From: Candidatus Brocadiaceae bacterium
GTDB taxonomy: Bacteria; Planctomycetota; Brocadiia; SM23-32
Direction: 5' to 3'
NCBI GenBank assembly: GCA_963805825.1
Contig: CAWDVO010000022.1
Span: 79,641 to 143,640 of the forward strand
Length of the DNA stretch: 64,000 nt
Positions 22,838-61,860 of the stretch are shown here, piece after piece (the first letter of the stretch is position 1; each line of letters starts with the position of its first letter). A program made the translations under genes and the position numbers. The notes under the pieces are model-generated. The model was not told where the DNA came from. It ran no database searches and saw nothing but the letters and a program-made list of their open reading frames with translations.

Positions 22838-22845
22838 AGACACGA

Positions 22846-45950: not shown

Positions 45951-45961
45951 CGTGTCGCCAT

Positions 45962-47013: not shown

Positions 47014-47537
47014 GGCCCCGCTCCGCTGTCGTTCGGCACGACATCCACAACGCCGGGCAGAGAGCCTATTCTTACGGTCAGGCTCTCGGTCCTGTACCCC
47101 AACTGCACCTGTCCGCTCGCGCCACTACCGTCCGGATAGAAGACGAGAGAACCCGTGCTGGAAGTCCCGTCCATGCCCACAAGGTCCTTCCTCTGCAGCA
47201 CGACGCCTTCAGGCAAGGACACCTCCCCCGGGTGGACGCCTGGCAAGAGCGCAAACGTGGGAACGACAGGATCAGGGGCGTACTCCACTCGATAGGCTCC
47301 CGTGGCGTCACGAAAGAGAACTCGCGTGACCACACCATCCATGATCGCCCTGGACTGGGCGTACCTGATGTCCGCAGCCAGGCTTGCAGCGGCCTCACGA
47401 AGGCCCATGGTCCCGAACGAGCGCCGCACCTGCGGAACGGCAGCGGCGGCCAGGATGGACACAATGGCCACGACGAGCAGCAGCTCCAGAAGAGTGAAGC
47501 CGTCTCTGCTACTCGGTCGGCATGTTCGATATGTCAT
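47010..47537 (-). CDS. gspH: pseudopilin GspH-like
   Basis: RDGFTLLELLLVVAIVSILAAAA prepilin N-terminus. Start placed at the internal ATG. Confidence 0.5.
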   Translation of the reverse strand: MTYRTCRPSSRDGFTLLELLLVVAIVSILAAAAVPQVRRSFGTMGLREAAASLAADIRYAQSRAIMDGVVTRVLFRDATGAYRVEYAPDPVVPTFALLPGVHPGEVSLPEGVVLQRKDLVGMDGTSSTGSLVFYPDGSGASGQVQLGYRTESLTVRIGSLPGVVDVVPNDSGAGP

Positions 47538-47955
47538 CTGCGGTGCCAAGTTGCCCATCCGCTCCAGGACTTGCCAGTTCGTACATGGTCGGGTACGCGG
47601 CACGAGGGTACCGGTATTCGTAGGCGTTGCCCCAGGGGTCCAGAGGGACCTTTGGCGTCTTCAGGTATGGGCCCTTCCAGCCCTGCGCGCCCGCCGGGGC
47701 CTCTACAAGGGATCCCAACCCCTGCTCGGTGGTCGGATACACGCCACAGTCCTGTTCGTACACGTCAAGGGCAACCCCCAGCGCCCCAAAGACATCTTGT
47801 TTGGCAGCAGCAATGCGCGCCTCGGTGGCACGTCCGGCAAGGCTCGGTATCACCGTTGCTGCCAGGATGCCAATGATTACGACAACGAGGAGAATCTCGA
47901 GCAGCGTGAACGCGGCCCTCCGCCCTCTTCGCGACTGACGACCGGTTTGGCTCAT
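47509..47955 (-). CDS. gspG: major pseudopilin GspG
   Basis: 148 aa: RRAAFTLLEILLVVVIIGILAATVIPSL...AKQDV...GVYPTTEQGL..L...P......GWKGPYL...DPWGN.Y.Y is the classic GspG signature. Confidence 0.8.
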   Translation of the reverse strand: MSQTGRQSRRGRRAAFTLLEILLVVVIIGILAATVIPSLAGRATEARIAAAKQDVFGALGVALDVYEQDCGVYPTTEQGLGSLVEAPAGAQGWKGPYLKTPKVPLDPWGNAYEYRYPRAAYPTMYELASPGADGQLGTADDISNMPTE

Positions 47956-47984
47956 CTGTTCTCTGCCTTTCCGTCCAGTTGATG

Positions 47985-49187
47985 CTAGCCCACGAGCGCG
48001 CTCGCGCGGAAGACGGGGAGAAGTATGGCTGCGACAACGAAGGCCACCATCCCCGCCAGCACTATGATCAGCCCCGACTCAACCAGTTGCGCCAGCCCAC
48101 TCGCAGCTGCCTCGACCTCCTGCTGATAGAACGACGCCACATTCAGAAGCATCCTGTCGAGTGACGCCGATTGTTCGCCCACGGCGACCATGTTCACCAA
48201 CGAATCAGGGAACCCCTCCTGCTCTCGCAGCGCCTCCGCCACGCTGACGCCCTCACTCACCCTGTCCCGGACCTTGATCACCTGCTCCGCGATCACTGCA
48301 TTCCCGACCGTCTCAGCCGCAACACCGAGGGCCGGCAGCACCCGGACGCCGCTCGAACAGAGGCTGCCGAAAGTCCCCGCAAAGCGGGCTGTCTCGACGC
48401 GCCTGATGAGCCGGCCAAAGTAAGGCGTGCCCAACAAGAGCCCGTGCCAAAGCCTCCTGCCCGAGCCCTGCCGCGTCGCACGGTACAGCCCCACAGCTGC
48501 CAGGAAGAGCGCGGGGCCGGCATATGGACCGTAGCTCTGGGCAGACCGGCTCGCACTCAGAAGCATCCGCGTGGCCAGGGGCAAGCGTTGCCCGTAGGAG
48601 GCGAAGAGCACCTGGAACTTCGGGACGACCACGACGAGAAGCAGAGATACTACTATGACGCCTACGACGAACAGGAACACCGGATAGAGCAATGCCGAAC
48701 GCATCCTGACTCGGGCTGCCTGCTGCCTCTCGGCCGTGTCAGCAAGCTGGCCGGCGGCCTCCGCCAGGCGCCCGGTGAGTTCTCCCGCCGATAGGATGCT
48801 GGCGCTCACCGGACCGAATGTCCCTCCAAGCTCCCTCACGGCCGAAGACAGTGACACTCCGCGCGAGACTGACTCGTGCAGCATCTGCACGGCCCGGCGA
48901 ACGTGCGTGCTCTCACACTGGGAGGCCGTGCTCTGTAGGGCCTGCACGAGGGGAAGCCCCGCTGTCAGCAGGCTCTCCAACTGGCGCCAGAACACCGCCG
49001 CATCCCTCGTCTTCGCCCTGCCCAACTTACTCGGCTTGCCGAAGGCCCCCGTCGGCTCCGCAAGTTCAAGGATGCTCAGGTCCATGCCCTTGAGCACCGC
49101 GATGGCGTGCGCCCGGTCCGCCGCGTCTACGGTGCCGGCCACTATCCGCTCCGGCCCCTTCTTCGCCCTATATGCGAACGATGGCAC
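47985..49187 (-). CDS. gspF: T2SS/T4P inner-membrane platform protein GspF/PilC family
   Basis: 400 aa. Duplicated GspF domains (LLTAGLPLVQAL, LLYPVFLFVVGVIVVSLLLVVVVPKF). 3 TM. Confidence 0.75.
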   Translation of the reverse strand: MPSFAYRAKKGPERIVAGTVDAADRAHAIAVLKGMDLSILELAEPTGAFGKPSKLGRAKTRDAAVFWRQLESLLTAGLPLVQALQSTASQCESTHVRRAVQMLHESVSRGVSLSSAVRELGGTFGPVSASILSAGELTGRLAEAAGQLADTAERQQAARVRMRSALLYPVFLFVVGVIVVSLLLVVVVPKFQVLFASYGQRLPLATRMLLSASRSAQSYGPYAGPALFLAAVGLYRATRQGSGRRLWHGLLLGTPYFGRLIRRVETARFAGTFGSLCSSGVRVLPALGVAAETVGNAVIAEQVIKVRDRVSEGVSVAEALREQEGFPDSLVNMVAVGEQSASLDRMLLNVASFYQQEVEAAASGLAQLVESGLIIVLAGMVAFVVAAILLPVFRASALVG

Positions 49188-49202
49188 TGCACGCGCTCCG
49201 CC

Positions 49203-50921
49203 CTATTGGTCGTCAGACTGCGTAACCCTCAGGACCTCTTCGACCGTTGTGACGCCCTTCCTCACCTTCTCCCAGCCGGCCTGGCGAAGGGTCCTCATGC
49301 CTTCGGCCAGGGCCGCCCGCAGGATTTCCGTGGAGGGGCTCCGCTGGAGCGTAAGCTCCCGTATTCGCTCTGAATTCACCAGTGTCTCGTAGATCGCCGT
49401 CCTTCCACGGTAGCCCGTGAGCCGGCAGTATTCGCATCCCCTGCCGGTGTACAGGACATCAGTGCCGGCAGTCTGCTCTGGGGTGCCAAACGCCTCCAAC
49501 TCCTGTTCCCGAGGGGTGTAGGCTTGCCGACAGCGGGGGCAGATAGTGCGCACGAGACGTTGGCTGATGGTGGCCAGAAGGGAGCTCGAAATCAGATACG
49601 GCTCAATGTCCATGTCGAGCAGCCGGGTCACGGCACCGGCGGCGTCGTTCGTATGTATCGTGCTGAAGACGAGGTGTCCGGTGAGCGCCGTGCGTATGGT
49701 GATCTGTGCCGTCTCCGGGTCGCGAATCTCGCCGATCAGCATCACGTCGGGATCGTGCCTCAACATAGACCTAAGCGCCCGCGCGAACGTGAACCCGATG
49801 TGGGGAGCGACCTGCATCTGCTGGACGCCCTCCATCAGGTACTCGACGGGGTCTTCGATGGTGATCACCTTCTTGTCAGAGGAGTTGACCCTGTTCAGAC
49901 AGGCATACAGCGTCGTGGTCTTGCCACTTCCGGTGGGCCCCGAAACAAGGACGATACCGTGCGGCTTCTTGAGCAGATCCCCCACTTTCTCCAGATCAGG
50001 CGTGTCCAGTCCGAGGGAGGGCAGGTCGTCGAACACCGGCCTGCGAGGGAGGATTCGCAGGTTGACCGCCTCGCCCCAGGATACGGGAAGGACCGACACG
50101 CGCAGGTCGAACTCCTCATCTCCCGTCCTGACGTGCGTCCGGCCGTCTTGGGGCAAGCGCTTTTCCGCGATGTCGAGGTTGGACAGCACCTTGATGCGGG
50201 AGATGATGGCATTCCGGAAGTGCTTGGCGCCGCGCGGAACACCCGCCTCCCGCAGCATGCCGTCAACGCGGTAACGTACCCGCAGTTCGCTTTCGTACGG
50301 TTCGAGATGGATGTCGGTCGCACGCTCGCGGATGGCATCGAGGATGATCTGATTCACAAGCTTGACGACAGAGGCCTTCTGGACCTCGCTCTCTTCCTCC
50401 AGGGTGCCCTGGACCGCTGCAGAGTCCTCAACGATGAGTTGGCCCTCTTCATCACCGATCAGCCCCTCGATCGTCTCGGCACCGACACCGTAGACGCCTC
50501 TGGAAGTCTTGGTGATGGCATCCTTGCAGGCCAAGGCCAGGCGCACGTCGCAGCCCAGTACCAGCGATACCTCATCCAGCACGTCGCTTCTGAACGGGTC
50601 GTCAAACGCGACCTGGAGGCGCCCTCCTTCAAGCGAGAGGGGGAGGATCCCGTAGCGCTCCGCCACCTTCGCGGGGACCCGTTGCACGGACTGCGGATCG
50701 ACGGTGCCAGGGGACGGCTCGACGTACTCAAGCCCCAACTGGGCTGCTGCACGACGCAGGAGCTTCGCCTCCTGGACCAGACCCAGGTTGACGAGGAGTT
50801 CCTTCGGCGACTTCCCAGATGAAGCTGCTTCCGCTTCGACTGCTGCCAGTTGATCCTTCGGGATCCCAAGCAAGTCGTCTCCAAGTATGCTACGAGACCA
50901 TGCGTTGACGCCGACGTTCAT
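49203..50921 (-). CDS. gspE: T2SS/T4P assembly ATPase GspE/PilB family
   Basis: 572 aa. N1/N2 domains. Walker A GIVLVSGPTGSGKTTTLYA. His box GHLVFSTIHTND. Tetracysteine CPRC...CEYC. Confidence 0.85.
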   Translation of the reverse strand: MNVGVNAWSRSILGDDLLGIPKDQLAAVEAEAASSGKSPKELLVNLGLVQEAKLLRRAAAQLGLEYVEPSPGTVDPQSVQRVPAKVAERYGILPLSLEGGRLQVAFDDPFRSDVLDEVSLVLGCDVRLALACKDAITKTSRGVYGVGAETIEGLIGDEEGQLIVEDSAAVQGTLEEESEVQKASVVKLVNQIILDAIRERATDIHLEPYESELRVRYRVDGMLREAGVPRGAKHFRNAIISRIKVLSNLDIAEKRLPQDGRTHVRTGDEEFDLRVSVLPVSWGEAVNLRILPRRPVFDDLPSLGLDTPDLEKVGDLLKKPHGIVLVSGPTGSGKTTTLYACLNRVNSSDKKVITIEDPVEYLMEGVQQMQVAPHIGFTFARALRSMLRHDPDVMLIGEIRDPETAQITIRTALTGHLVFSTIHTNDAAGAVTRLLDMDIEPYLISSSLLATISQRLVRTICPRCRQAYTPREQELEAFGTPEQTAGTDVLYTGRGCEYCRLTGYRGRTAIYETLVNSERIRELTLQRSPSTEILRAALAEGMRTLRQAGWEKVRKGVTTVEEVLRVTQSDDQ

Positions 50922-52015
50922 GTCGCATACCGATAGCTAGTGCGCTTCTGCGGCTCTCTCTCGCCTCCGAGTGGGCCGGAAGACGCGTATTGACTACTGT
51001 GAATGGGCGCCCTCAAAACACCTATTGCCATACCTTCTGCTTTGTAGTAACATGATGGGCCTTTCGATCCTGACCGTGGTCTCGGCCAGCGAGCCCAGCC
51101 GCGACAGAGGGGTATGGGTGCGTCGTGTGAAGCAGGCCCGCTGGCCCTTCCGCCACAAGAGCCGCATGTGACGCGCCCAGCGCCCTCGTTCGAAGCCTGT
51201 CCACTTAGTGAGCACTCTCGGCGGCGTGTCACGCGGCAGGCTACACCCCCAGGGCTACCCCGAAACCACTGCGGAGCCCCCCGCGAACGAGGCCCACGCA
51301 GCGGGCGCGGAAGGCCCCGGCCGCCCAGATCGGCGGGCATCTGGACACCAGGACAAGCCCCTCCGCAGGGCCGCGCATCTTTCCTTGGCGCTGTCCCCAT
51401 GGGACGGCAAGGGCGGCCCTGCAACGTAGCGTCATGAACTCCCCATCGCGCCCGAGAACCAGGCCGCCCTTCTTGTGCGGCTGACTCGCGCATCCGGGGA
51501 CGGCGAGTAGCCCGGCGGCGGCTACCGAACATAGCTCCGCCGTTGACGCTCAAAGGGTCAGGCCGACAGGGGAAGAAGAGACAAGGGCCAGTACGCCTGG
51601 AGGCGGCAGAGGGGGATAGGGTGCACCGCCTGAGCCAGCATAGCTGGCCCCTGTTTCGGTGGGAGGACTCGTCGTATGACTTCTCTGGCGCATTTCGCGA
51701 CAGACGGAACTCCTGGGTCAGAGACTTCTTCGATGCGGCCTGATGTAACGGCGGTTCGTGCCGCCAAGGTGCACCGTACGGATCTCTCGCATTGGTGCTT
51801 AGTGAAGCGGGGCGGCGAAACGTCACGCGCTGAGTTGGACGACCACGCCAGAGGCAAACACCTTGCCCATTCTCTCTGCCGCGCACAAGTCACCAGTGGC
51901 CACCGGTGGAGACTGAGCGGACAATCGGAAACGCTGCCTCTCATACGGACGACCGCGCAAGCGACATGGCTGGTGTCGTAGCGAACGTTGCAGGCTCCAC
52001 ACGGCCAGAACGCAG

Positions 52016-53764
52016 TCAGCGATTCGCCGCCTCGGGAGTTCTCTGATCGAACAGCTTTACCTCACCGTCCCCGACCTCAAGGATCAGGTCGCAAGCGTCT
52101 CGCGGCGGAAGGCGATGGCCCGCAACAAGGATCGTCCGCTTGCCCGTCAGCGCCTCCAGGGCCCGCCAGAGCTGCGCTTCTGTGAGGCGGTCGACGTTGG
52201 CGAAGGGCTCGTCGAGGAGCAGAATGGGGCTTTCCTTCAGAAAGGCCCTCGCCAGGGTCAGACGGTGAGCTTGGCCGGCCGACAGACTCACGTGCTCGGA
52301 TTCCAGATGGCTGTCCAATCCGTCGGGCAGATCCTCGACGAACTCATGGGCGCACGCAAGCTCAAGTGCTTGCACGACTTCTGCAGCGGAGGCAGATGGT
52401 CGCCCATAGAGCACGTTCTCCATTACCGTCCCTGAGAAGAGGGTGGCCTCCTGCGGCGCGACGCTGACGAGACTCCGGACCTGACGGGGCGAAAGACGCG
52501 AGAGCGGCTCGTCTCCGAAGAAGACGTCGCCGGTGTGGCACTCGCAAAGGGCACTGCAGAGCCTGAAGATAGTGGTCTTTCCCGCACCGCTGGCCCCGAT
52601 GAGCACGGCCAGGCGCCCGGCAGGCACCTCGAAGTCTGCGTCGCTCAGGACGGCGGCGGCCGTTCCATAGGAAAACGTGACGTGCGAGAACCTGACGCCA
52701 AGCGCACGCGTGGAGGACGTCCGGCGCGGCAGTGCCCTCGTGCTCTCCTGGGGTTGCCGCAGGAACTGCAGCACCCGGTCCCCGGGAGCCAGCCCTGCGA
52801 TGAGCCGTTGGAGTATGGACGCGAACGCCAGGAACGGGGAGGCAACCATGCCAAAGTACATGGAGAATGCGACCGCGGACCCCAGCGTCATCGAGCCCCG
52901 AATGACCATGAGCCAGCCGGCGCACATCAGCACGAACGGCGGCCCGGACTCCAGGAACCACTGGATCTGGCTGAGCGTTCGCTCCCGTCGCCAGAGCCGA
53001 AAGTCCGCACGAATGGCAGGCTTCGCCTCGGCCGCGTAGCGGTGGAACTCCCTGGTCTCTTGGCCGAAGAGCTTCGCAAGAGGGAGAAGACGGATCGCCT
53101 CGAGGAGAACTCCGCTCGCCCTCGCGCGGACGTCGCGGAGGTCGCGGCGCAGAGGGAGGAGCCTGCCGCTGGAGAAGACACGGAACAGGCAAAGGGCAGG
53201 CAGCAGCATCAGGTACGGCACTGCCAGATCCCATCTGAGCCTCACCATGATGAACGCGGCGATGACCAGCGTACAGCCGTTGTTCAGCAGAGAAGGGAAG
53301 ATCGAGAGGATCATCTCCGCCACCGCCTCAAGGTCCGACATCATGCTGAAAGTGTGTTCGCCCGGACGTTTCGCCTGGATCCCCGATAGCGGCAGAGAAC
53401 TCAGGTGACGGAAGTAGGCCACTCGAAGCCGCCACTTCACCCACGAGGACAGGTACAGGGAGAGGTATGACTGCAGGAGCCTCAGGCCCTGTATGACGAG
53501 CAGCGCACCGGCACAGACCCCGATGAACAGGTAGAAAAGGGGGAGGTCCCTGCGGGCCAGGATGTCGTCGATGATGTACTTGCTTACGAACGGGGTGAGC
53601 GCCTGGACCGCACTGCCCAGACCGCCCAAGAGGACGACAAAGGCAAGTTTGCGGCGGTAGGGCCGCAGATGGGGCATGAAGGCCCGCACCATGCGAACCG
53701 ACGAGGTCAGGGCTGCTATGGTGCCACTCGTTGCAGTCACTCGATGTGCGGGCTCCGGAGACAA
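52016..53764 (-). CDS. ABC transporter, fused permease-ATPase exporter (type I ABC exporter)
   Basis: 582 aa. 6 TM N-terminal domain. Walker A GASGAGKTT. Signature LSAGQAHRLTLARAF. Walker B ILLLDEP. Confidence 0.8.
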   Translation of the reverse strand: MSPEPAHRVTATSGTIAALTSSVRMVRAFMPHLRPYRRKLAFVVLLGGLGSAVQALTPFVSKYIIDDILARRDLPLFYLFIGVCAGALLVIQGLRLLQSYLSLYLSSWVKWRLRVAYFRHLSSLPLSGIQAKRPGEHTFSMMSDLEAVAEMILSIFPSLLNNGCTLVIAAFIMVRLRWDLAVPYLMLLPALCLFRVFSSGRLLPLRRDLRDVRARASGVLLEAIRLLPLAKLFGQETREFHRYAAEAKPAIRADFRLWRRERTLSQIQWFLESGPPFVLMCAGWLMVIRGSMTLGSAVAFSMYFGMVASPFLAFASILQRLIAGLAPGDRVLQFLRQPQESTRALPRRTSSTRALGVRFSHVTFSYGTAAAVLSDADFEVPAGRLAVLIGASGAGKTTIFRLCSALCECHTGDVFFGDEPLSRLSPRQVRSLVSVAPQEATLFSGTVMENVLYGRPSASAAEVVQALELACAHEFVEDLPDGLDSHLESEHVSLSAGQAHRLTLARAFLKESPILLLDEPFANVDRLTEAQLWRALEALTGKRTILVAGHRLPPRDACDLILEVGDGEVKLFDQRTPEAANR

Positions 53765-53921: not shown

Positions 53922-55448
53922 TCACTGCAGCGGGGCCTCATAACGCGGAGCCTTGGGGCAGGCCGGATGGGGCGCAAAACGGGTGCCATAGGCCTTATAC
54001 TGCAGCATCAGGCATCCCCCCTTCAGCACCTGGCATCTGTCGAACTCCTCGCACTCTGAGCAAGGAGTGCCGGCGTAGTCCGCATGGCGGGCCTCCTTGA
54101 ACCGTCGCATCGTTTCCGACTGCCAGACATCCACCAAACTGCAATTGGTCACGTTCCCGACGATGAACTCGTCATCCTGAGGCGACTGCTCACACATCGT
54201 CACTCGGCCGTCGGGCGCAACGATGATGGTCTCTCTGCCTGCTCCACACCTGGGGAAGTCGCGGAACGCCGCCGACCGCTCGCCCTCGTCCATGTCCAGG
54301 TAGTCGGACCGGCACTCGAACTTGATCTTGCCCTCCGGGTACTCCTGCTGAAGGATGGCGACCTGCTCCCGCAGCCACCTCTTCTGCACCTCCGTCAACA
54401 GCAACCCTTCGCGATGGCGGTGGGCCGACCTGAAGGCCGACGCGATCTTCATGTCGCGCAGAGGGAGCGTGTGCAGCAGAGCGACCAGTTCGCGGACGTG
54501 CGAATGGGTATCCTGAACGAGGATGCTGTTCGTCCTGCATGCAATCCCCGCCTCCGCGCAGTTCGTGATTGACTCCAGCGTCCGACGGAAATGCCCTTTC
54601 CTACCCACCACGCGGTCGAACAACTCGGGGTACGGGGCGTCGAACCCGAACTGCATGGTCCGGATGCCGGCGTCGTAGAGCTCCCGAGCGCGGGACTTCG
54701 ATACGTACGCTTTGGTCGACAGGTCGACGCTGAGCCCCTTCGAGACCGCATAGCCGAGCAGTCCAGTGATGCCCTTGCGGCAGAGAGCGTCCCCGCCGTC
54801 GACGTTCACTGAGCATACCCCGATAGCCGCGGCCTCGTCCATGAGTCCCTTGACCCTCTGGTCGGAAAGTCGTGCCGACGCGGGGACCGGTCTTCGCGTG
54901 GCGTAGCAGTAGACGCAGTCCGTCTGACAGACGTCCGTGGGCATCCAGAGCATCGTGATGGGGGCATCGAGTTCGGCCGTGAGTCGCACCTCTGCACCAG
55001 GTATCACGTAATCCCGAGGGTTGTAAGCCCTGAAAGGGCGTGACGGATAGACTTCCCGGCTGAACAGGCCCGGCGCCGCAGGGCCGAAGGCGTCCACGGT
55101 GGCCAGCGCTTTCCTCACCTTGAAGTCGTTCAGCTCCTTGCTCCCGCCGCAGTGCTCCCGCAGGAGTGCCGAGACGTCATCGAGCGTGCGGGAGCCGTTC
55201 AAACACGCAACGACAACCGCCAGGCCGGGGTTGAGCCGACGCGACCAGACGTCAAGGAAGGTCGCCCCGTAAAAGACCACCTGCGCACGGTCCCGGCGCA
55301 GCCGAGCCTGCTCGGAGATGGCGAGTCGGGTGTCACCCCGCATGCCGAACGCGCGGTGCTGCTCTTCCAGCGAACTCAGGCACCCTTGCTCGGTCCATGC
55401 CCTGAAGAGCTCCTCGTCGATCGTGGGTTCAGCGGTTCGTTCGTCCAA
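53922..55448 (-). CDS. radical SAM / SPASM-domain peptide maturase with about 170-aa N-terminal extension (possible RRE-like substrate-binding domain)
   Basis: 508 aa. CQTDCVYCY (C-x3-C-x2-C) at about residue 180. SPASM CEQS...CSECEEFDRCQVLKGGC. Confidence 0.75.
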   Translation of the reverse strand: MDERTAEPTIDEELFRAWTEQGCLSSLEEQHRAFGMRGDTRLAISEQARLRRDRAQVVFYGATFLDVWSRRLNPGLAVVVACLNGSRTLDDVSALLREHCGGSKELNDFKVRKALATVDAFGPAAPGLFSREVYPSRPFRAYNPRDYVIPGAEVRLTAELDAPITMLWMPTDVCQTDCVYCYATRRPVPASARLSDQRVKGLMDEAAAIGVCSVNVDGGDALCRKGITGLLGYAVSKGLSVDLSTKAYVSKSRARELYDAGIRTMQFGFDAPYPELFDRVVGRKGHFRRTLESITNCAEAGIACRTNSILVQDTHSHVRELVALLHTLPLRDMKIASAFRSAHRHREGLLLTEVQKRWLREQVAILQQEYPEGKIKFECRSDYLDMDEGERSAAFRDFPRCGAGRETIIVAPDGRVTMCEQSPQDDEFIVGNVTNCSLVDVWQSETMRRFKEARHADYAGTPCSECEEFDRCQVLKGGCLMLQYKAYGTRFAPHPACPKAPRYEAPLQ

Positions 55449-55512: not shown

Positions 55513-56610
55513 TCACTCATCCGAGGAGCGGACCCCGTTGACGGTGAGGTCGGTGAACCATTCCTCGCCCCGCAGTTGATAGCCCATGTAGTACCGCACA
55601 GTGTGCTCAGGGTAGTAGATGCCGCCCACGTTCCGGTACTGGATAGCCATCGCATCGTAGATGGACGGCTCCCCGGATTTCGCGTTGACCTGCCTGGCCA
55701 CGACGAAGTCGGCCATCCCGGTCTCGTGACTGAACCAGAACCCCTTCTCCAGTTCGGGAGGGGCGTCCACCAGCATCGTGATGACGTCGTATTCGGTGGC
55801 CCTGGCACCGGCAGTGAAGGCCTCAAGGCCCGGCAGCTTCAGGTCCATCCGCCGGCCCTGGTCGATGCCGTCCCCATACTTCAGAAGCACGGCAACCTGC
55901 AGTAAGCTCTCCCCGTCCAGGTAGGCTGGCACCCAGCTCTCGCCCACCCCGAGGGTGCCGTTGCTTGTCTTGCCGGCGGGTGTGATAAGCTCCGACACAT
56001 CTCTTCCCTCGCTGATGGAGCCTTCCATTCTGAAGTACGCCGGTGACCGCGTCGCCTCGACGGCAACGGACCAGTTGTCCGCAGCGGCACGTGATTGCAT
56101 TGCAGCGCTCGTCGGGGTGTCCTCGGCTGCGGTTACAACTCTCCTGTGGTGGAGGGAGAGCGAGCCGATGTGCGAGAAGTTGCGTTCATACCGGAGGAGT
56201 ATGGGCTCCGCCTTCGCGAAGTCCTCTTTCGAGAAGCCCTCCGGGACACCGTCGAAACGAGGTCGGCGCCACACCGTGGGGACCGGCTCGGAGACCGTGC
56301 CGTCGACAAGACCGGGCAGTTCGATCCCCACCGCATCTGACAGAGGAGCGGGACCAGGATGTGGCTGCTCCGGGGCTCCGGGACGTAGGGCGTGCGTGTC
56401 ATCCGTCTCGCGACCCGCCGGCACCTGCTGTTCACTCTCCACAGGCACCGGGCCACGCACACTGCTTTGTGGCGCGAAAGAGAACAGGTAGAACAGAAAG
56501 AAGACGATCGCCAGGCAGACACCGCCAGCCAACAAAACCCTTGCCCTCACCTTGCCCTCCACGTCAGCAGGAATCTCCTCGGGCTCCGCCGCGCACCGTA
56601 CGCTCTCCAT
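55513..56610 (-). CDS. bitopic membrane protein with large periplasmic domain, paralogous to the C-terminal domain of the anti-sigma factor at 57251..59137
   Basis: 365 aa. TM LLAGGVCLAIVFFLFYLF. Periplasmic ...ELITPAGKTSNGTLGVGESWVPAYLDGE...EYDVITMLVDAPPELEKGFWFSHETGMADFVVARQ...YRNVGGIYYPE aligns with EIVTPVGKISNGYFGAGESAIPAYLDGE...RYDVIALTAKTSGAVSEYWFNEATGMLDYCVARY...YQDVGGILYLE. Confidence 0.6.
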   Translation of the reverse strand: MESVRCAAEPEEIPADVEGKVRARVLLAGGVCLAIVFFLFYLFSFAPQSSVRGPVPVESEQQVPAGRETDDTHALRPGAPEQPHPGPAPLSDAVGIELPGLVDGTVSEPVPTVWRRPRFDGVPEGFSKEDFAKAEPILLRYERNFSHIGSLSLHHRRVVTAAEDTPTSAAMQSRAAADNWSVAVEATRSPAYFRMEGSISEGRDVSELITPAGKTSNGTLGVGESWVPAYLDGESLLQVAVLLKYGDGIDQGRRMDLKLPGLEAFTAGARATEYDVITMLVDAPPELEKGFWFSHETGMADFVVARQVNAKSGEPSIYDAMAIQYRNVGGIYYPEHTVRYYMGYQLRGEEWFTDLTVNGVRSSDE

Positions 56611-56864
56611 GTGTATCAGCCGTCAACGCGACCAAAGCCGTCAGCCTAGCGCGCTGTGTTCGCCTCAAGCCGAACCGATACAGCTGCCGCAACTGCACGT
56701 GCCAGCGCTGCCGGCTAAGCGAGCAACCGCTGCGTACGGGGGAGGTGGTTCGCTCTCGGCAGCCAAGTTCGGCGAGACGGGTGCCTCGGAATCTCGCGGT
56801 CCGTGCCGTACCAAGCGGGGTACCGTCTCGGGCCACTGCCCTCCCCCAGAACAAACGCGCCATG

Positions 56865-57146
56865 TCAGTCAGCCTGTCCTCGAGACAGATGGCTGCAGTC
56901 ACCGACCGCACACACAGAAACCATCGCGTCCCCGCCCGAGCCGTTGGTGCAAGCGCCGTCAATACAGGCGTGCGAAGGCACGCCGCAGGCACTGCCGCCG
57001 CAGGACACCCTGCCGGCGCACACCAGTGTATTGCAGCCGAAGTTGAGCGGGCAGAGAGATGGACACGTGGTGCTGTCAGCGGCTCCGCCCAAAGCACTCA
57101 GTCCCAGGTCCACAAAGAGGCCTCCCAGCAATTGATCGAGTGTCAC
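56865..57146 (-). CDS. Cys-rich small peptide (93 aa, 11 Cys), candidate radical SAM/SPASM precursor (SCIFF/ranthipeptide-like); GTG start
   Basis: Translation (GTG)TLDQLLGGLFVDLGLSALGGAADSTTCPSLCPLNFGCNTLVCAGRVSCGGSACGVPSHACIDGACTNGSGGDAMVSVCAVGDCSHLSRGQAD*. Strong SD GAGGGGAGGAAG 5-6 nt upstream of GTG (complement of 57144-57146). The ORF track shows it as an M-initial ORF. Confidence 0.55.
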   Translation of the reverse strand: MTLDQLLGGLFVDLGLSALGGAADSTTCPSLCPLNFGCNTLVCAGRVSCGGSACGVPSHACIDGACTNGSGGDAMVSVCAVGDCSHLSRGQAD

Positions 57147-57250
57147 TCGCTTCCTCCCCTCTTGGCGCTCGCATGGAGATGGTCAGAACCGACGCCTGTC
57201 ACCGTTCTGCCGCAGGTTCCGGCTGCGCGGGCGTACCGTTCACCACCAGG

Positions 57251-59137
57251 CTAGTTATGGTGTCTTCGCGCTTTATTTCTTCCGAATAGTTGCACCAGGC
57301 CCATCGCTTCCAGGTACAGGATGCCTCCCACATCCTGGTAACCGAAGGCCAATGCCTCGCGCAACGCTCCTTTCCCGCCGTCGACTGCCGGGTAGCGGGC
57401 GACGCAGTAGTCCAACATGCCCGTCGCTTCATTGAACCAGTACTCCGAAACGGCGCCTGACGTCTTCGCCGTCAGGGCGATCACATCGTATCTCGAGGCT
57501 GCCTGAGAGCTGACGTACTCCTCAAGCCCCGGCAGGTCTTCGGTCATTGCGACTCCTGTCTGCACGCTGTCCGCTCGCCCCATCAGGTCGCTCACATTGA
57601 AGCGCAGCTCTCCGTCCAGGTAGGCGGGGATGGCGCTCTCACCTGCGCCAAAGTACCCGTTACTGATCTTGCCCACCGGCGTAACGATCTCGCTTATCGG
57701 CGCGCCTCTTCCGTCCTGGCCCAACATCTGGAGGAAGAGCGGTTGGCGAGTGGCCTCGACGTCCAACACGAAGCTCATGTCGTCCAGAGGGCCGCGACTG
57801 CCGCTCCCGCTGAAGTGGGCCGCTTCTTGCCGGCGCTGGAACGATACGGACGATATTCTCGCGAAGTTCGCGGCATAGCGGGATAGCGTGCTCTTGGCTG
57901 TCCGCAGGTCCGAACGAGACAACTCCTCGGACGGCCCCAGCCGCGGCCTGCTCCACGCGAGCGGCTGCAGATCCCCTATCTCCTTATCCACGAAATCCGA
58001 CAGGACTCCGCCCTCTACCGGTTCCGTCTGCGTCACAGTGTCGCCGGCTGTCGACGAGGGCGCTGGCTTGCTGGCACCAGCAGCGGGTGGCCGGGGCAGG
58101 GTTCTTCGTAACAGGAACTCAGCGAGAGCGTTCGCGTCCTCGAGATGCGCTGTCCAGCTGACTTCGGACGAAACATCCGCCTGGGCCGACGGTATAAGTC
58201 TGTCGGTGCCAAGAACACTGGCCATCCCACCGGCAAGCACATGGGTCCAGTCGGATGGCTTGGTGGATGCCGCAACGCGTGCGCTTCCCCGCAGAAGGAA
58301 CACGTCTGTCTGTGCCGGAGCTGCCCGAACGTCCAAGATGGTGCCAGTGACGCCGACAACCGCATTGTCCGTCCTGATGCTGAAGGGGTGCCCGGGGACC
58401 ACCTCCAGATAGACCTCGCCTGCCACGAGTTGGACGGCGACGCCCGCCGGACCAAGCCTCCCGTCCGCCGGGTGCGCTGCTATGCGAGTGAACACAGCCC
58501 TGCTGTGCGCATTGAGGATGGCCCGGTGCTTCCCATCGAGCAGTATTTCCTGTGCGTCGTCCCCGGTGCTGATGTCGTTACCCCTGACAGCCACCCTCTC
58601 TCCAGACGACGTCAGGAGCGCGACGAAATCGCCCTCCCCCCCCTGCTCCGGTGCATCCGCACTTACAGTCGGAGTCGGACGCGGAGCCAGGAACCCACCG
58701 TGAGTGATAATCAGCAGAGCAGTTCCCACCGCCAGCAGCAGGGAAGCTGCCACGGCAAGCGCAACGTGTGGTCGGCGCCAGATGGTGCGTGCGGAGGGGT
58801 CTCCACTGACCTCAGCCTTCCCCCTCCCTGTCGCGCCGGATTCTCCGGCGGCCCTCTCCCTCCAGCCGCCCGCCGCGGCGTGCCCTGCCTCAACTCCGGT
58901 ACGGCGCGCCAGCGCACGTAGGGTCCTGGGATGGAGGCTTCCCCACCTCGTCCGAAGGAACGGGACCAGTCTGGCCGTCTCCTCGTAGTCGGTGCGACAA
59001 ACGGGGCACACCTCCAGGTGGCTCTCAAGCGCCTCCCTGTCGGCCTGTGTGAGGTCCGGGTCAGACTCGATGTACAATGACAGCAGCAGCTGTGCCTCAC
59101 AGCACTTCAGCGTCCGCTGGTCTTCGTTACTGCCCAA
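57251..59137 (-). CDS. anti-sigma factor: N-terminal ZAS zinc-finger, TM helix, FecR-like domain and extra C-terminal domain shared with the 365-aa protein
   Basis: 628 aa. H-x3-C-x2-C (HLEVCPVCRTDYEE). TM ALAVAASLLLAVGTALLII. FecR-like GEVYLEVVPGHPFSIRTDNAVVGVTGTILDVR. Confidence 0.7.
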   Translation of the reverse strand: MGSNEDQRTLKCCEAQLLLSLYIESDPDLTQADREALESHLEVCPVCRTDYEETARLVPFLRTRWGSLHPRTLRALARRTGVEAGHAAAGGWRERAAGESGATGRGKAEVSGDPSARTIWRRPHVALAVAASLLLAVGTALLIITHGGFLAPRPTPTVSADAPEQGGEGDFVALLTSSGERVAVRGNDISTGDDAQEILLDGKHRAILNAHSRAVFTRIAAHPADGRLGPAGVAVQLVAGEVYLEVVPGHPFSIRTDNAVVGVTGTILDVRAAPAQTDVFLLRGSARVAASTKPSDWTHVLAGGMASVLGTDRLIPSAQADVSSEVSWTAHLEDANALAEFLLRRTLPRPPAAGASKPAPSSTAGDTVTQTEPVEGGVLSDFVDKEIGDLQPLAWSRPRLGPSEELSRSDLRTAKSTLSRYAANFARISSVSFQRRQEAAHFSGSGSRGPLDDMSFVLDVEATRQPLFLQMLGQDGRGAPISEIVTPVGKISNGYFGAGESAIPAYLDGELRFNVSDLMGRADSVQTGVAMTEDLPGLEEYVSSQAASRYDVIALTAKTSGAVSEYWFNEATGMLDYCVARYPAVDGGKGALREALAFGYQDVGGILYLEAMGLVQLFGRNKARRHHN

Positions 59138-59335
59138 CGGAATGGGCTCCCTTCGGGATTTGCACCTTGATGTAGCTTAGTGACGGGTGGGGGGCCGGTG
59201 TCACGAACTTGCCTGGTCCCCCGGCCCAAAATCCGGCGGGTCTACCGGGTGTCCGTACGCACCCCAGCCCTCCGGCGAGACAGGGGGGTCCCGCTCTTCA
59301 CGAACGAACCGAGAGGCCATGCGCGGGTACCTCCC

Positions 59336-59932
59336 TCAGCGCCATAGGGTCATCCCCGTGATCAGGAAGACGGCAGTCCCCCTTAGCAGTTCTCGGAGGG
59401 CTTTACGGGCCCTGTACAATCGGTTGCGGAACTGGTTGGGGTTACAGTCGGCCATCTCAGCAGCCTCCCCAACCGGGATCTCCAACACATGGACCAGTTC
59501 AAAGGCCTCACGCTGCTCGGGCGTCAAGTGAGACTTGGCACGTTCGATGGCCGCGGCCGTTTCCTCTGCTTCCAGGCCCCTGCTCTCATCGGTCCGTCGT
59601 CCTTCCACTTCATACTCGACATCATCGAATGAGACCGCCGCTCTGCGGTGTCGACCACGCACATTCTCTCGGAGGACGTTCTTCGCGATGCCCAGAACAT
59701 AGGTCTTCACCGACGAATCGCCGCGAAAGCGCTCTCTGTGCTCCCACAGCCGCACAAAGACCTCTTGCACAAGTTCTGGCAGGTCGCTCCGACTAACGCC
59801 AACGGCGCGACTGCTGAGGAAGTCGCGCACAACAGGAGAATAGACCCGGTAGATGTCCTCAAACGACCCGTCAGGACACCGGTCGGCGCTCCCCAAAGTG
59901 CGGTCTCCCTCATTGTCGGCTGGAGGTGCCAT
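59336..59932 (-). CDS. ECF (sigma-24-type) RNA polymerase sigma factor
   Basis: 198 aa. Region 2 FEDIYRVYSPVVRDFL...VQEVFVRLWE. Region 4 LTPEQREAFELVHVLEIPVGEAAEMADCNPNQFRNRLYRARKAL. Confidence 0.8.
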   Translation of the reverse strand: MAPPADNEGDRTLGSADRCPDGSFEDIYRVYSPVVRDFLSSRAVGVSRSDLPELVQEVFVRLWEHRERFRGDSSVKTYVLGIAKNVLRENVRGRHRRAAVSFDDVEYEVEGRRTDESRGLEAEETAAAIERAKSHLTPEQREAFELVHVLEIPVGEAAEMADCNPNQFRNRLYRARKALRELLRGTAVFLITGMTLWR

Positions 59933-60378
59933 AGGCCTCTCTCCCGAACATCAGGGCCACGCGCTGTTGCGGACTGACCTCGTGTACGAGCGACAGATAG
60001 ACCGGTTGCACTCAGTTGAGGGCAGCACAGCCTGTCTGTCTCAGGACTCAGCCCACTTCCCGGTTCTGTCCTACACAATTCTCCCGAAGATGCACTGGCA
60101 GCAGTATAGGCGTTTGGCCGTCGGAGTCAAGACTCCCTCCGTCCCCACTTGCAGAGCCACAGTCTGCTTCCCACGAAGTCGAACGGGGTGCGCTCCATGG
60201 AACGGTGTCCCGACGAGATCCCTCGTTCCGGCCGTTACGGAGGCATCTGAGCTTGACGGGCATGCATCGGTCGGCCTCTCCGCCTCAGGCGAAGCGTGAT
60301 GAACCGGCCCCGAATGGCACAAATACACGGGTAGTATGCGTGGCGGTATGGCCTTCCCTTGGCCAGTGAGGTGGAGCG

Positions 60379-60709: not shown

Positions 60710-61860
60710 GTACCTGGTTGCGTTAGTTTGCGTATGTTGGATTGAGGGCCTTCGGGCCCACGTTCCGCTTCGTCCACTCGAAGGGGGCGGCCTGTTCGTT
60801 ATGCGCTTCGACATAGGCATCTATCGCCTGGCGCACCTGGCGAGTGTGCGTGAAGCTGCGCGGCTTCAGGGCGTGCCGCGTCAGCAGGCTGAACCATATC
60901 TCGATCTGGTTCAGCCACGAGGCGTGCGTCGGGGTGTAGTGGAAGCGCACGTTCTTGTGCCGGGCCAACCAGCCGTCGTGTCGGGGCTTGTGGGTGCTCA
61001 GGTTATCGAGGATCACGTGGACCTCCTCGTCGGGGTGGTCGGCGAGCAGCTCGTTCATGAACTCCAGGAACTCCCTGCGGCGTCGGCGCCGGAAGTGGCC
61101 TGCCTTGACCAGGCCCGTGGCGACCTCCAGGGCGGCGAAGAGCGTGGTGGTGCCGTGCCGCTTGTACTCGTGGCTGTAGCCCGTCATGGCCTTGCCGTTG
61201 GGCAGCCGAAGCCACCCTTGCGCGCGCTCCAGAGCCTGGATGTGGGGCTTCTCGTCCACGCACAGGACCAGAGCATTCTGGGGCGGATCCAGATAGAGCC
61301 CCACGATGTCGGCGGCCTTGCGGGCGAACTCCGGGTCGGTGCTCACGCACCAGGAGCGGCGCCTCTGCAGGTGGATGCCGTGGCGGCGCAGCACGCGCCA
61401 GACCTGGTCGGCGCTCACGTCGCCCAGCCGCTTTGCCAGCAGGCTGCCCGTCCAGGTGGCGTAGCCCTTGGGCGGGGGGCTGTCGAGCGCCTCCAGGATG
61501 CGCCGCTCGGCCGCCTGTCTGTAGCGGGCGGGTTTGCCCGAGCGCGGGGCGTCCGAGAGCCCCGCCAGGCGCTCGGCGGCGAAGCGCGTGCGCCACTTGG
61601 AGACGCGCGCGGCCCGCGTGCCGAGTTCCCGGGCGACCTCTTCGTTGGTGGCCCCGTCGGCCAGGCGCAGGATCATGCGCGCCCTCTCTGCCGCCCGATG
61701 CTCGCTGGTGCCGCAGCGCACCCAGGACTGGAGCACCGTGCGTTCCTCCTCGCTCAACGAGATCTCCGTCCCCTTCACCATGCCATCGTCCCCTTTCTCA
61801 GCCCATTCGGACCTCGGCCAGGGACGATTATATCATACGCTAACTAACGCTGGCAAGTAC
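60710..61860 (-). mobile_element. IS630-family insertion sequence (1151 bp) with ~30-bp terminal inverted repeats and TA target duplication
   Basis: Left TA(60708-9)-GTACCTGGTTGCGTTAGTTTGCGTATG. Right CATACGCTAACTAACGCTGGCAAGTAC-TA(61861-2). About 25/30 of the IR is complementary. Confidence 0.75.
60723..61781 (-). CDS. IS630-family (Tc1/mariner-like) transposase
   Basis: 352 aa. HTH N-terminus (LSEEERTVLQSW...ATNEEVARELG). DDE_3 core (LVLCVDEK...HVILDNLSTHK...YTPTHASWLNQIE). Confidence 0.8.
   Translation of the reverse strand: MVKGTEISLSEEERTVLQSWVRCGTSEHRAAERARMILRLADGATNEEVARELGTRAARVSKWRTRFAAERLAGLSDAPRSGKPARYRQAAERRILEALDSPPPKGYATWTGSLLAKRLGDVSADQVWRVLRRHGIHLQRRRSWCVSTDPEFARKAADIVGLYLDPPQNALVLCVDEKPHIQALERAQGWLRLPNGKAMTGYSHEYKRHGTTTLFAALEVATGLVKAGHFRRRRRREFLEFMNELLADHPDEEVHVILDNLSTHKPRHDGWLARHKNVRFHYTPTHASWLNQIEIWFSLLTRHALKPRSFTHTRQVRQAIDAYVEAHNEQAAPFEWTKRNVGPKALNPTYAN

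What the first reader, a model, noticed from the sequence alone, without database searches (positions are those of the whole stretch)
55513..59932. ECF sigma / ZAS-FecR anti-sigma pair whose anti-sigma carries an extra C-terminal domain duplicated as a separate membrane protein beside the rSAM maturase
The periplasmic C-terminus of the 628-aa anti-sigma factor (TPVGKISNGYFGAGESAIPAYLDGE...YDVIALTA...YWFNEATGMLDYCVARY) is clearly paralogous to the periplasmic domain of the 365-aa protein encoded directly next to the maturase. The Cys-peptide gene lies between the two. This looks like a dedicated envelope-signalling circuit (cell-surface-signalling-like) in which the shared domain could sense the exported peptide, giving autoregulation of a RiPP.
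Basis: partly seen in the sequence, partly recalled or inferred. Interest (0 to 1): 0.55.

Follow-up and report, generated by a model that had tools for sequence, protein, structure and literature searches.

The report
Anti-sigma factor borrows peptide-cluster LolA-like domain
A probably planctomycete gene cluster for a cysteine-rich modified peptide encodes a rare membrane-anchored LolA-fold protein, and a second copy of that domain forms the outer sensor end of the neighbouring anti-sigma factor, which suggests (unproven) that the cell senses its own peptide.

Summary
Residues 343-610 of the anti-sigma factor and residues 75-335 of the 365-aa protein are 36% identical over 276 aa (BLASTP E=3e-45). 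The Cys-rich peptide gene lies between the two genes, and the rSAM/SPASM maturase follows.

The shared domain is not a generic FecR appendage. It matches no Pfam, NCBIfam or PDB sequence. A profile search of 1.84 billion representative proteins found only 35 relatives. A confident AlphaFold model (domain pLDDT above 90) has a LolA-superfamily fold, like LolA, LolB, LprG and MucB/RseB.

All six loci that carry an orthologous maturase (55-60% identity) have the stand-alone protein and one to three precursor peptides next to it. A FecR-type anti-sigma factor is adjacent in four lineages. Only three lineages have the domain fused to it, and those fused copies form one clade. Two lineages carry a different C-terminal domain, and two loci have no regulator nearby.

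So the domain is a hallmark of the peptide cluster that one lineage copied into its regulator. This fits product sensing, as proposed for MibX/MibW, but ligand binding is only inferred. Lipid or envelope sensing, as in RseB, remains a live rival. Strict cell-surface signalling is not supported. The anti-sigma 3' end carries a probable frameshift.

The parts
60103..60130 (-). Sigma-70-type promoter-like site (TTGACT-16-TATACT) about 170 nt upstream of the ECF sigma gene
   Evidence: Found by the scan. The same TTGACT...TATACT pair is conserved upstream of the sigma gene in the related locus L002, while the flanking sequence has diverged.
59336..59932 (-). ECF (group 4) sigma factor, 198 aa
   Evidence: Pfam Sigma70_r2 (44.5 bits) and Sigma70_r4_2 (43.1 bits). 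TIGR02937 sigma70-ECF scores 82.9 bits against a cut-off of 42.9. It is 52% identical to the sigma factor of L002.
57199..59137 (-). Anti-sigma factor. Order of parts: ZAS domain, one TM helix, FecR domain, Pro/Ala/Ser linker, C-terminal LolA-fold domain. The ORF as read ends at 57251 (628 aa). The likely true end is 57199, after a frameshift near 57313.
   Evidence: Pfam zf-HC2 covers aa 14-48 and FecR covers aa 188-286. The H40-x3-C44-x2-C47 motif and the hydrophobic segment at about aa 124-150 are visible in the sequence. The C-terminal domain scores 264 bits against the family HMM, and the overlapping frame hits HMM positions 233-262 at E=2.7e-4.
58994..59098 (-). ZAS (zf-HC2) cytoplasmic sigma-binding motif of the anti-sigma factor
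   Evidence: 27.3 bits against a cut-off of 22.2. The HLEVCPVC motif is visible.
58280..58576 (-). FecR domain (extracytoplasmic) of the anti-sigma factor
   Evidence: PF04773, 43.2 bits against a cut-off of 24, aa 188-286.
57199..57970 (-). LolA-fold domain copy fused to the anti-sigma factor (aa ~390 to the end)
   Evidence: It keeps all the near-invariant family residues. It clusters with the fused copies of L002 and P0004.
58636..58643 (-). G8 homopolymer (on the coding strand) inside the anti-sigma gene. It is G7 in the other public assembly, which splits the gene there.
   Evidence: The G8 version gives an intact protein collinear with the L002 orthologue.
56865..57146 (-). Precursor peptide gene, 93 aa, GTG start with GGAGGA about 7 nt upstream. 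It has a conserved ~22-aa leader (MTLDQLLGGLFVDLGLSALGG) and a core with 13 Cys.
   Evidence: Homologous peptides with the same leader sit in L002, L006, L009, L010, L012 and L015 (three tandem copies).
55513..56610 (-). Stand-alone membrane-anchored LolA-fold protein, 365 aa. It has an N-terminal TM helix, a disordered Pro-rich linker and the domain at aa ~110-365.
   Evidence: AlphaFold2 with a 26-sequence alignment: mean pLDDT 85, above 90 from residue ~110 to ~360. Foldseek hits are all LolA superfamily. No Pfam, NCBIfam or PDB sequence match.
53922..55448 (-). Radical SAM/SPASM peptide maturase, 508 aa, with a ~155-aa N-terminal extension
   Evidence: Pfam Radical_SAM and SPASM. No NCBIfam equivalog reaches its cut-off. 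Orthologues at 55-60% identity occur in L006, L009, L010, L012 and L015.
52016..53764 (-). ABC exporter (fused TMD-NBD half transporter, no peptidase domain), 582 aa
   Evidence: Orthologues at 33-34% identity sit at the end of the cluster in L006, L009, L012 and L015.

Best explanation
This is a pathway-specific ECF sigma/anti-sigma pair built into a previously undescribed rSAM/SPASM peptide (RiPP-like) gene cluster.

The core of the cluster is a precursor with a conserved ~22-residue leader and a core with Cys at about every fifth residue, an rSAM/SPASM maturase, an ABC exporter, and a single-pass membrane protein that displays a LolA-fold domain on the outer face of the cytoplasmic membrane.

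Proposed mechanism. The peptide is cross-linked in the cytoplasm and exported by the ABC transporter. Outside, it meets the LolA-fold protein, which binds it as a receptor, chaperone or immunity protein. In the lineage of this window, a duplicate of that domain replaced the original C-terminal domain of the adjacent ZAS-TM-FecR anti-sigma factor. Exported peptide is therefore also bound by the anti-sigma factor. Binding destabilises or inactivates the anti-sigma factor, the ECF sigma factor is released, and cluster expression rises (feed-forward or auto-induction).

Shown here: the paralogy, the fold, the domain architecture, the conserved synteny, and that the duplication is older than the split between the window and L002 lineages.

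Inferred: the topology, the peptide as ligand, sigma release, and the sigma factor's target genes.
For: - Paralogy: E=3e-45.
- Rarity: 35 hits among 1.84e9 representative proteins. The family is absent from Pfam, NCBIfam and PDB sequences.
- Co-occurrence: in 6 of 6 loci with an orthologous maturase (window, L006, L009, L010/11, L012, L015), the stand-alone protein and one to three homologous precursors are adjacent.
- Regulator linkage: a ZAS/FecR anti-sigma gene sits immediately upstream in the window, L002/3, L006 and L015.
- Domain swap: the LolA-fold domain is fused in the window, L002/3 and L004. L006 and L015 share a different C-terminal domain instead. This points to a functional link between the anti-sigma factor and the LolA-fold protein.
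- Age: the fused copies form one clade and the stand-alone copies another, so both have been kept since before these lineages split. The fused copy keeps all near-invariant family residues.
- Fold: LolA superfamily, a half-barrel that binds hydrophobic ligands.
- Placement: the ZAS domain must be cytoplasmic, so with one TM helix the fused domain must lie outside.
- Precedent: the MibX/MibW ECF/anti-sigma pair is proposed to give feed-forward control of microbisporicin production after export of the peptide (PMC4973701).
Against: There is no direct evidence that the domain binds the peptide. Characterised LolA-fold proteins bind lipids or acyl chains, not peptides (PDB hits).

I found no ECF-type promoter in front of the peptide or biosynthetic genes. 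The only recognisable promoter is a conserved sigma-70-type one upstream of the sigma gene.

Two clusters (L009, L010) have no adjacent sigma/anti-sigma pair, and L015 has no sigma gene within 10 kb, so regulation by this route is optional.

More distant family members (P0016, P0018) sit in unrelated contexts.

The anti-sigma gene as assembled has a frameshift that removes the last strand(s) of the domain.

Only about ten loci could be inspected.
Confidence: 0.45

Rival explanations
1. Envelope or lipid sensor. The LolA-fold domain of the anti-sigma factor binds a lipid or mislocalised envelope component, as RseB/MucB do. The sigma factor then responds to membrane damage, possibly damage caused by the peptide, rather than to the peptide itself.
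For: All structural neighbours are lipid or lipoprotein binders: LolA, LolB, LppX, LprG with PIM or triacylglyceride, MucB and RseB. MucB/RseB are LolA-like modulators of an anti-sigma factor that are released by lipid signals (PMC7400510). The MibW model also allows indirect sensing through envelope stress.
Against: This does not explain why the family is tied so tightly to the precursor and maturase (6 of 6 loci) and is otherwise almost absent from 1.84e9 proteins. It does not explain why clusters without any anti-sigma factor keep the stand-alone protein. There is no sequence-level relation to MucB_RseB or LolA families.
Confidence: 0.2
2. RseB-like partner. The stand-alone protein is a trans-acting regulator that docks onto the extracytoplasmic part of the anti-sigma factor. 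It would bind the paralogous domain here and the alternative C-terminal domain in L006/L015. This docking would protect the anti-sigma factor from proteolysis until a signal removes the partner.
For: The anti-sigma gene and the stand-alone gene are adjacent in four lineages. Replacement of the alternative domain by a copy of the partner looks like a fusion of interacting proteins. The RseA-RseB and MucA-MucB systems are precedents.
Against: The stand-alone protein is kept in clusters with no anti-sigma factor nearby (L009, L010), so regulation cannot be its only role. No interaction could be modelled here.
Confidence: 0.15
3. Export or immunity component only. The stand-alone protein is a periplasmic acceptor for the ABC exporter (as LolA is for LolCDE) or a LanI-like immunity protein. 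The anti-sigma copy would be an evolutionary leftover, or a pseudogene, with no sensing role.
For: The protein always occurs with the ABC exporter and maturase. The window copy of the anti-sigma gene has a 3' frameshift and is split in the other assembly.
Against: The fused copy is conserved as an intact domain in L002 and P0004, keeps the family's invariant residues, and has diverged as its own clade. The frameshifts look technical. The same window has a split gspD, and the two assemblies differ at a homopolymer.
Confidence: 0.1

Closest known systems
MibX/MibW (microbisporicin) and similar pathway-specific ECF sigma/anti-sigma pairs in actinobacterial lantibiotic clusters
   Same: An ECF sigma factor and a membrane anti-sigma factor are encoded inside a RiPP cluster that also has an ABC exporter. 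The proposed logic is the same: exported peptide, or its effect, inactivates the anti-sigma factor and gives feed-forward expression (PMC4973701).
   Different: The phylum, the peptide class (rSAM/SPASM with a Cys-rich core rather than a lanthipeptide) and the anti-sigma architecture (ZAS-TM-FecR-LolA-fold) all differ. Here the sensor domain is a paralogue of a dedicated cluster protein. To my knowledge (not checked here) this has not been described for MibW.
RseA/RseB (E. coli) and MucA/MucB (P. aeruginosa)
   Same: A LolA-fold extracytoplasmic protein is coupled to a single-pass anti-sigma factor of an ECF sigma factor. MucB and RseB are among the Foldseek hits at E about 1e-3. Release of MucB by a lipid ligand is described in PMC7400510.
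   Different: RseB and MucB are soluble two-domain proteins that act in trans. Here the domain is single, membrane-anchored and also fused in cis. There is no sequence-level membership. The context is a peptide biosynthesis cluster, not rpoE/algU.
FecI/FecR/FecA cell-surface signalling
   Same: An ECF sigma factor is paired with an anti-sigma factor that carries the Pfam FecR domain outside the membrane.
   Different: There is no TonB-dependent transducer with a signalling domain nearby. The N-terminus is ZAS-type. The C-terminal domain is LolA-fold rather than the FecR C-terminal domain.
LolA/LolB/LprG/LppX lipoprotein and lipid carriers
   Same: The predicted fold is the same. An ABC transporter is encoded next to it, which recalls LolCDE handing cargo to LolA.
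   Different: No detectable sequence similarity. The protein is N-terminally membrane-anchored. It occurs only with a Cys-rich peptide and an rSAM maturase.
Cys-rich rSAM/SPASM RiPPs: CefA 'Cys-every-fifth' peptides (NCBIfam NF038108), SCIFF/ranthipeptides
   Same: The precursor has a leader plus a repetitive Cys-rich core, with an adjacent rSAM/SPASM enzyme. Two homologues give weak hits to NF038108.
   Different: The hits are below the cut-off (17.4 against 30 bits), and the window peptide gives none. The maturase reaches no curated equivalog cut-off. The leader motif LLGGL-F-FS(I/L)PSLSG hit no NCBIfam or Pfam model apart from the sub-threshold CefA matches.

Membership tests
ECF (group 4) sigma-70 factors | Only sigma regions 2 and 4, about 200 aa | tested here: met
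   Sigma70_r2 and Sigma70_r4_2 above Pfam cut-offs. TIGR02937 scores 82.9 bits against 42.9.
ZAS (zinc-binding) class I anti-sigma factors | N-terminal anti-sigma domain with an H-x3-C-x2-C motif | tested here: met
   zf-HC2 scores 27.3 bits against a cut-off of 22.2. H40-x3-C44-x2-C47 is read directly from the sequence.
ZAS (zinc-binding) class I anti-sigma factors | Binds its cognate sigma factor; zinc or redox dependence | not testable with these tools
   Only the gene adjacency and the 198-nt spacing were seen.
FecR-domain anti-sigma factors | Pfam FecR (PF04773) domain after a single TM helix | tested here: met
   43.2 bits against a cut-off of 24, aa 188-286. The hydrophobic segment at about aa 124-150 is visible.
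FecIRA-type cell-surface signalling | Adjacent TonB-dependent transducer with an N-terminal signalling domain that contacts the anti-sigma C-terminus | tested here: not met
   No such gene among the called genes within about 10 kb either side or among the neighbours scanned. The related loci also lack one.
LolA superfamily (fold level) | Unclosed antiparallel beta-barrel with a helical lid or plug | tested here: met
LolA superfamily (sequence families LolA, LolB, LolA_like, DUF1329, DUF4367, MucB_RseB) | Match to a curated family HMM | tested here: not met
   None of the 26 family members matches any such Pfam model at E<=1. NCBIfam gives nothing. A profile search of PDB sequences gives nothing relevant.
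RseB/MucB anti-sigma modulators | Soluble two-domain periplasmic protein that binds the C-terminus of RseA/MucA | tested here: not met
   The protein has a single domain with an N-terminal TM anchor. Fold hits to MucB/RseB are weak, E about 1e-3. The binding partner is not testable here.
Radical SAM/SPASM peptide maturases | C-x3-C-x2-C radical SAM core plus a C-terminal SPASM auxiliary-cluster domain, next to a precursor peptide | tested here: met
   Radical_SAM scores 61.3 bits and SPASM 45 bits. CQTDCVYC is visible in the sequence. A precursor lies within about 1.4 kb.
Curated rSAM/SPASM equivalogs (mycofactocin MftC, PqqE, SCIFF ScfB, PapB, AlbA and others) | Score above the NCBIfam equivalog cut-off | tested here: not met
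   The best hit is TIGR03962 at 109 bits against a cut-off of 265. All others are further below their cut-offs.
CefA 'Cys-every-fifth' RiPP precursors (NF038108) | Score above the 30-bit cut-off | tested here: not met
   The window peptide gives no hit. The L006 homologue scores 17.4 bits and the L010 homologue 11.6 bits.
Pathway-specific ECF regulation of a RiPP cluster (MibX/MibW type) | Sigma/anti-sigma pair encoded inside the cluster | tested here: met
   Same strand and contiguous with the precursor, maturase and exporter. The synteny is conserved in L002 and L006.
Pathway-specific ECF regulation of a RiPP cluster (MibX/MibW type) | Sigma-dependent promoters in front of the biosynthetic genes | tested here: inconclusive
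   No shared AAC...CGT-type motif or conserved two-box motif was found in the intergenic regions of the window and related loci. There are too few loci for motif discovery.

The most novel reading that the evidence does not exclude
The LolA-fold family is a dedicated extracytoplasmic receptor for a new class of rSAM-cross-linked 'Cys-every-fifth' peptides. One planctomycete lineage copied this receptor into an ECF anti-sigma factor. The result would be a peptide auto-inducer circuit, quorum-sensing-like, that signals through an ECF sigma factor in a diderm bacterium. It would also be a natural case of a sensor built by duplicating a pathway's own ligand-binding protein.
Probability: 0.2. Interest if true: 0.75.

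Novelty: new variant of a known kind. Interest (0 to 1): 0.55.

Why it matters
It defines an undescribed RiPP-like cluster family. The parts are a leader motif, a Cys-rich core, an rSAM/SPASM enzyme, an ABC exporter and a hallmark LolA-fold membrane protein. So far it is seen almost only in metagenomes, and one relative is labelled Planctomycetota.

It also offers a concrete, testable case of how an ECF anti-sigma factor could gain ligand specificity: by capturing a copy of a pathway protein. If the domain binds the peptide, LolA-fold proteins would gain a new ligand class. The sigma/anti-sigma pair could then be used to switch on an otherwise silent cluster, or as a peptide biosensor.

Tried and rejected
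- Word-index homologue searches with the 365-aa protein, the family alignment and the anti-sigma factor returned essentially only self-hits. The exhaustive profile search was needed.
- The first AlphaFold run, with a two-sequence alignment, was unusable (pLDDT 31) and was discarded. The 26-sequence run was used instead.
- With the maturase alignment, the search for related loci found only an unrelated rSAM (22% identity) in an Omnitrophica genome and nothing in metagenome contigs. The organism range and the total number of clusters therefore stay poorly sampled.
- Two searches for ECF-type promoters gave nothing credible: an AAC-N15-18-CGT scan and a shared two-box k-mer search between the window and L002.
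- Rfam gave only one sub-threshold chance hit.
- There is no DNA-level repeat between the two domain-coding regions.
- Literature searches for LolA-like domains in anti-sigma factors or RiPP clusters found nothing in the held library.
- Rejected readings: strict FecIRA-type cell-surface signalling (no transducer), and a generic domain present on all FecR proteins (35 hits in 1.84e9 proteins, and the anti-sigma factors of L006 and L015 lack it).
Full report
**What is there.** Six co-directional genes lie on the minus strand:
- an ECF sigma factor (59336-59932);
- a 628-aa anti-sigma ORF (57251-59137);
- a 93-aa Cys-rich ORF (56865-57146);
- a 365-aa protein (55513-56610);
- an rSAM/SPASM enzyme (53922-55448);
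- an ABC exporter (52016-53764).

Pfam and NCBIfam confirm sigma regions 2 and 4. In the anti-sigma factor they confirm a zf-HC2 (ZAS) motif at aa 14-48 and a FecR domain at aa 188-286. They also confirm Radical_SAM plus SPASM, and ABC_membrane plus ABC_tran. Nothing matches the anti-sigma C-terminus, the 365-aa protein or the peptide. The peptide ORF starts at a GTG with GGAGGA about 7 nt upstream.

BLASTP aligns anti-sigma residues 343-610 with residues 75-335 of the 365-aa protein at 36% identity over 276 aa, E=3e-45. Conserved blocks run along the whole domain, for example VEATR-P, TP-GK-SNG, ESxxPAYLDGE, LPGLE, YDVI and WF...TGM. A family HMM finds exactly two copies in the window. There is no DNA-level repeat, so the duplication is old.

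**Assembly caveats.** The window is 99.97% identical to ENA contig ERZ25039500:contig_13851. That contig has G7 instead of G8 at 58636-58643, which splits the anti-sigma gene into 174 and 447 aa. The window version is collinear with the intact orthologue in L002, so G8 is probably right.

The last ~30 residues of the family consensus are missing from the 628-aa frame. They are present in the overlapping frame that ends at 57199 (...WKRWAWCNYSEEIKREDTITSLVVNGTPAQ...). That stretch matches orthologue P0004 (...YWRRWELCDYSTGIEQSNEVTRLLVNG...) and hits the HMM at positions 233-262 with E=2.7e-4. The shift is a single base at TAC-C-TGG near 57313. The gspD secretin gene in the same window is also split into two overlapping ORFs. 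I therefore think these are sequencing errors and the true anti-sigma factor is about 645 aa, but a real truncation is not excluded.

**What the shared domain is.** A profile of the two copies was searched against 1.84 billion representative proteins. It found 35 hits at E<=0.001 and 27 at E<=1e-10. Nearly all are 330-360-aa proteins with an N-terminal TM helix, a variable linker and the domain at the C-terminus. None of 26 members matches a Pfam family over the domain, and a profile search of PDB sequences gives nothing.

With the 26-sequence alignment, AlphaFold2 gives mean pLDDT 85, above 90 from residue ~110 to ~360. The model has a TM helix at 15-45, a disordered linker, one long helix, then 11 strands with short helices. 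The top 40 or so Foldseek PDB hits are nearly all LolA-superfamily proteins. They include an outer-membrane lipoprotein-sorting domain (3bk5, E=5.8e-7), DUF1329, LolA3, NE2245, LolA, LolB, LppX, LprG, MucB and RseB, with target-normalised TM-scores of about 0.5. So the fold is generic, a half-barrel that binds hydrophobic ligands. The sequence family is rare and unannotated.

**Genomic context elsewhere.** I fetched the contigs that encode ten family members.

| Locus (member) | What is there |
|---|---|
| L002/L003 (P0002; 46% BLASTP identity to the 365-aa protein, 50% over the domain) | sigma, then 619-aa ZAS/FecR anti-sigma with the same C-terminal domain (241 bits), then 84-aa homologous peptide, then stand-alone protein, then an IS insertion |
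| L004 (P0004) | a partial anti-sigma orthologue with the domain |
| L006 (P0005) | sigma-like sequence, then FecR anti-sigma without the domain, then stand-alone protein, 110-aa peptide, rSAM/SPASM (56% identical to the window enzyme), S8-like protease, B12-rSAM, ABC |
| L015 (P0044) | FecR anti-sigma without the domain, then stand-alone protein, three tandem precursors, rSAM/SPASM (55%), S8-like protease, B12-rSAM, ABC |
| L009 (P0006, labelled a Planctomycetota MAG by NCBI) | stand-alone protein, peptide, rSAM/SPASM (58%), ABC; no adjacent regulator |
| L010/L011 (P0008) | stand-alone protein, peptide, rSAM/SPASM (60%) |
| L012 (P0010) | stand-alone protein, peptide, rSAM/SPASM (58%), S8-like protease, B12-rSAM, glycosyltransferase, ABC |
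| L007 (P0007) | three tandem copies of the domain protein |
| L013 (P0016, distant member) | unrelated context: a MoxR/DUF58 operon |
| L016 (P0018, distant member) | unrelated context: housekeeping genes |

Every locus with an orthologous maturase (6 of 6) therefore has the LolA-fold protein and at least one precursor next to it.

The precursors share the leader M-S-L-x-x-L-L-G-G-L-x-F-x-F-S-(I/L)-P-S-L-S-G and a core with Cys at about every fifth residue. Two of them give sub-threshold hits to the NCBIfam CefA 'Cys-every-fifth RiPP' model. The maturase reaches no curated equivalog cut-off.

**Evolution of the fusion.** The anti-sigma factors of L006 and L015 are homologous to each other over their full length (E=3e-40). 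They share a different C-terminal domain with the motif FPWIF...DY-ELL-SGD-WQF. In the window, L002 and L004 lineages the LolA-fold domain sits in that position.

A neighbour-joining tree of the domain puts the fused copies (window, P0004, L002 and the fragment P0009) in one clade. The stand-alone proteins of the window and L002 fall in another. The duplication and fusion therefore predate the split of these organisms, and both copies have been kept since. The fused copy retains every near-invariant family residue.

**Most likely mechanism.**
- Shown: the architecture, the fold, the synteny and the age of the duplication.
- Inferred from topology rules: the ZAS domain must be cytoplasmic to hold the sigma factor. 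With one TM helix, the FecR and LolA-fold parts are therefore outside. The stand-alone protein has a positively charged N-terminus before its TM helix, so its domain is outside as well.
- Inferred: the peptide is cross-linked by the rSAM/SPASM enzyme, exported by the ABC transporter and bound by the LolA-fold protein. In the fusion lineage it is also bound by the anti-sigma factor, which then releases the sigma factor.

This is the same logic as proposed for MibX/MibW in microbisporicin production. There, exported peptide either interacts with the anti-sigma factor or causes envelope stress that the anti-sigma factor perceives (PMC4973701).

The domain swap next to an always-adjacent stand-alone protein also fits an RseB-like in-trans interaction. 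MucB/RseB are LolA-like and are released by lipids (PMC7400510). I rank product sensing first at 0.45. The family's near-exclusive linkage to the peptide and maturase is hard to explain by a generic lipid ligand. Lipid or envelope sensing (0.2), an RseB-like partner role (0.15) and an export- or immunity-only role (0.1) remain open.

**What is not supported.** There is no TonB-dependent transducer, so this is not cell-surface signalling in the FecIRA sense. I could not find ECF-type promoters in the cluster. The one convincing promoter is a sigma-70-type TTGACT-N16/17-TATACT upstream of the sigma gene, conserved between the window and L002. It would give basal expression of the regulatory pair.

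**Novelty and score.** RiPP clusters with their own ECF/anti-sigma pair are known, and so are LolA-fold modulators of anti-sigma factors. Three things are new here:
- the cluster family itself;
- the unannotated LolA-fold family as its hallmark;
- an anti-sigma sensor domain that is a paralogue of that hallmark protein.

I rate it a new variant of a known kind, interest 0.55. The sample is small, about ten loci, all from metagenomes. The capped searches could not enlarge it.

Noticed in passing
window 57199-57330 (minus strand): A probable 1-nt frameshift at TAC-C-TGG near 57313 cuts the last ~30 residues off the anti-sigma LolA-fold domain. The missing end is encoded in the overlapping frame that stops at 57199. 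The site contains CCTGG, a Dcm-type motif known (from my own knowledge) to cause systematic nanopore errors.
   Followed up: yes
window 58636-58643; L001 ~7909: The window and the ENA contig ERZ25039500:contig_13851 are the same organism (99.97% identity). They differ at a G8/G7 homopolymer that splits the anti-sigma gene in the ENA copy, and at four substitutions.
   Followed up: yes
window 39992-42155 (minus strand): The gspD secretin gene is split into two overlapping ORFs. The N0 and Secretin_N domains are in 40911-42155. A further Secretin_N and the Secretin domain are in 39992-41101. This is another probable frameshift in this assembly.
   Followed up: partly
window 56665-56814 (minus strand): A second small ORF (49 aa, TTG start) ends in ...AGSAGTCSCGSCIGSA. 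It lies in the 254-nt gap between the peptide gene and the 365-aa gene. It has no leader-like N-terminus and no obvious counterpart in L002. It may be a decayed second precursor copy (L015 has three tandem precursors) or may be chance.
   Followed up: partly
window ~39992-50921 (minus strand); L010 5697-6029, L011 2988-3320: A complete type II secretion operon (GspE, F, G, H, I, J ... D) starts directly downstream of the ABC exporter. In L010/L011 a secretin fragment and a DUF1573 protein lie just upstream of the LolA-fold gene. This could be a link between the peptide cluster and outer-membrane secretion, or coincidence.
   Followed up: no
window 60723-61781 (minus strand); L002 9722-10818: An IS630-like transposase (HTH plus DDE_3) lies just upstream of the sigma promoter in the window. 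In L002 a similar HTH_29/DDE_3 element sits right after the LolA-fold gene, where the maturase would be expected. The cluster borders appear to be hot spots for this IS type.
   Followed up: partly
L006 5908-9166; L012 3753-8041; L015 14425-17792: Related clusters carry extra genes between the maturase and the exporter: an S8-like protease, a B12-binding rSAM (methyltransferase-like) and, in L012, a glycosyltransferase. The window cluster lacks these. Its only B12-rSAM, at 21083-22924, is 25% identical and 30 kb away.
   Followed up: partly
L007 3-1823: Three LolA-fold family genes lie in tandem on one short contig. The family can therefore expand by tandem duplication.
   Followed up: no
window 50918-51886 (minus strand): A 322-aa Arg-rich ORF between the ABC exporter and gspE is called as a gene in the ENA annotation. 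It has no Pfam hit and an odd composition, and is probably not a real gene.
   Followed up: partly
L001 2543-4411; L002 498-2159: A Phosphodiest-family (PF01663) gene lies a few kb upstream of the sigma gene both in the ENA copy of the window's contig (L001; this stretch lies beyond the window's end) and in L002. Synteny between these two organisms thus extends beyond the cluster.
   Followed up: no
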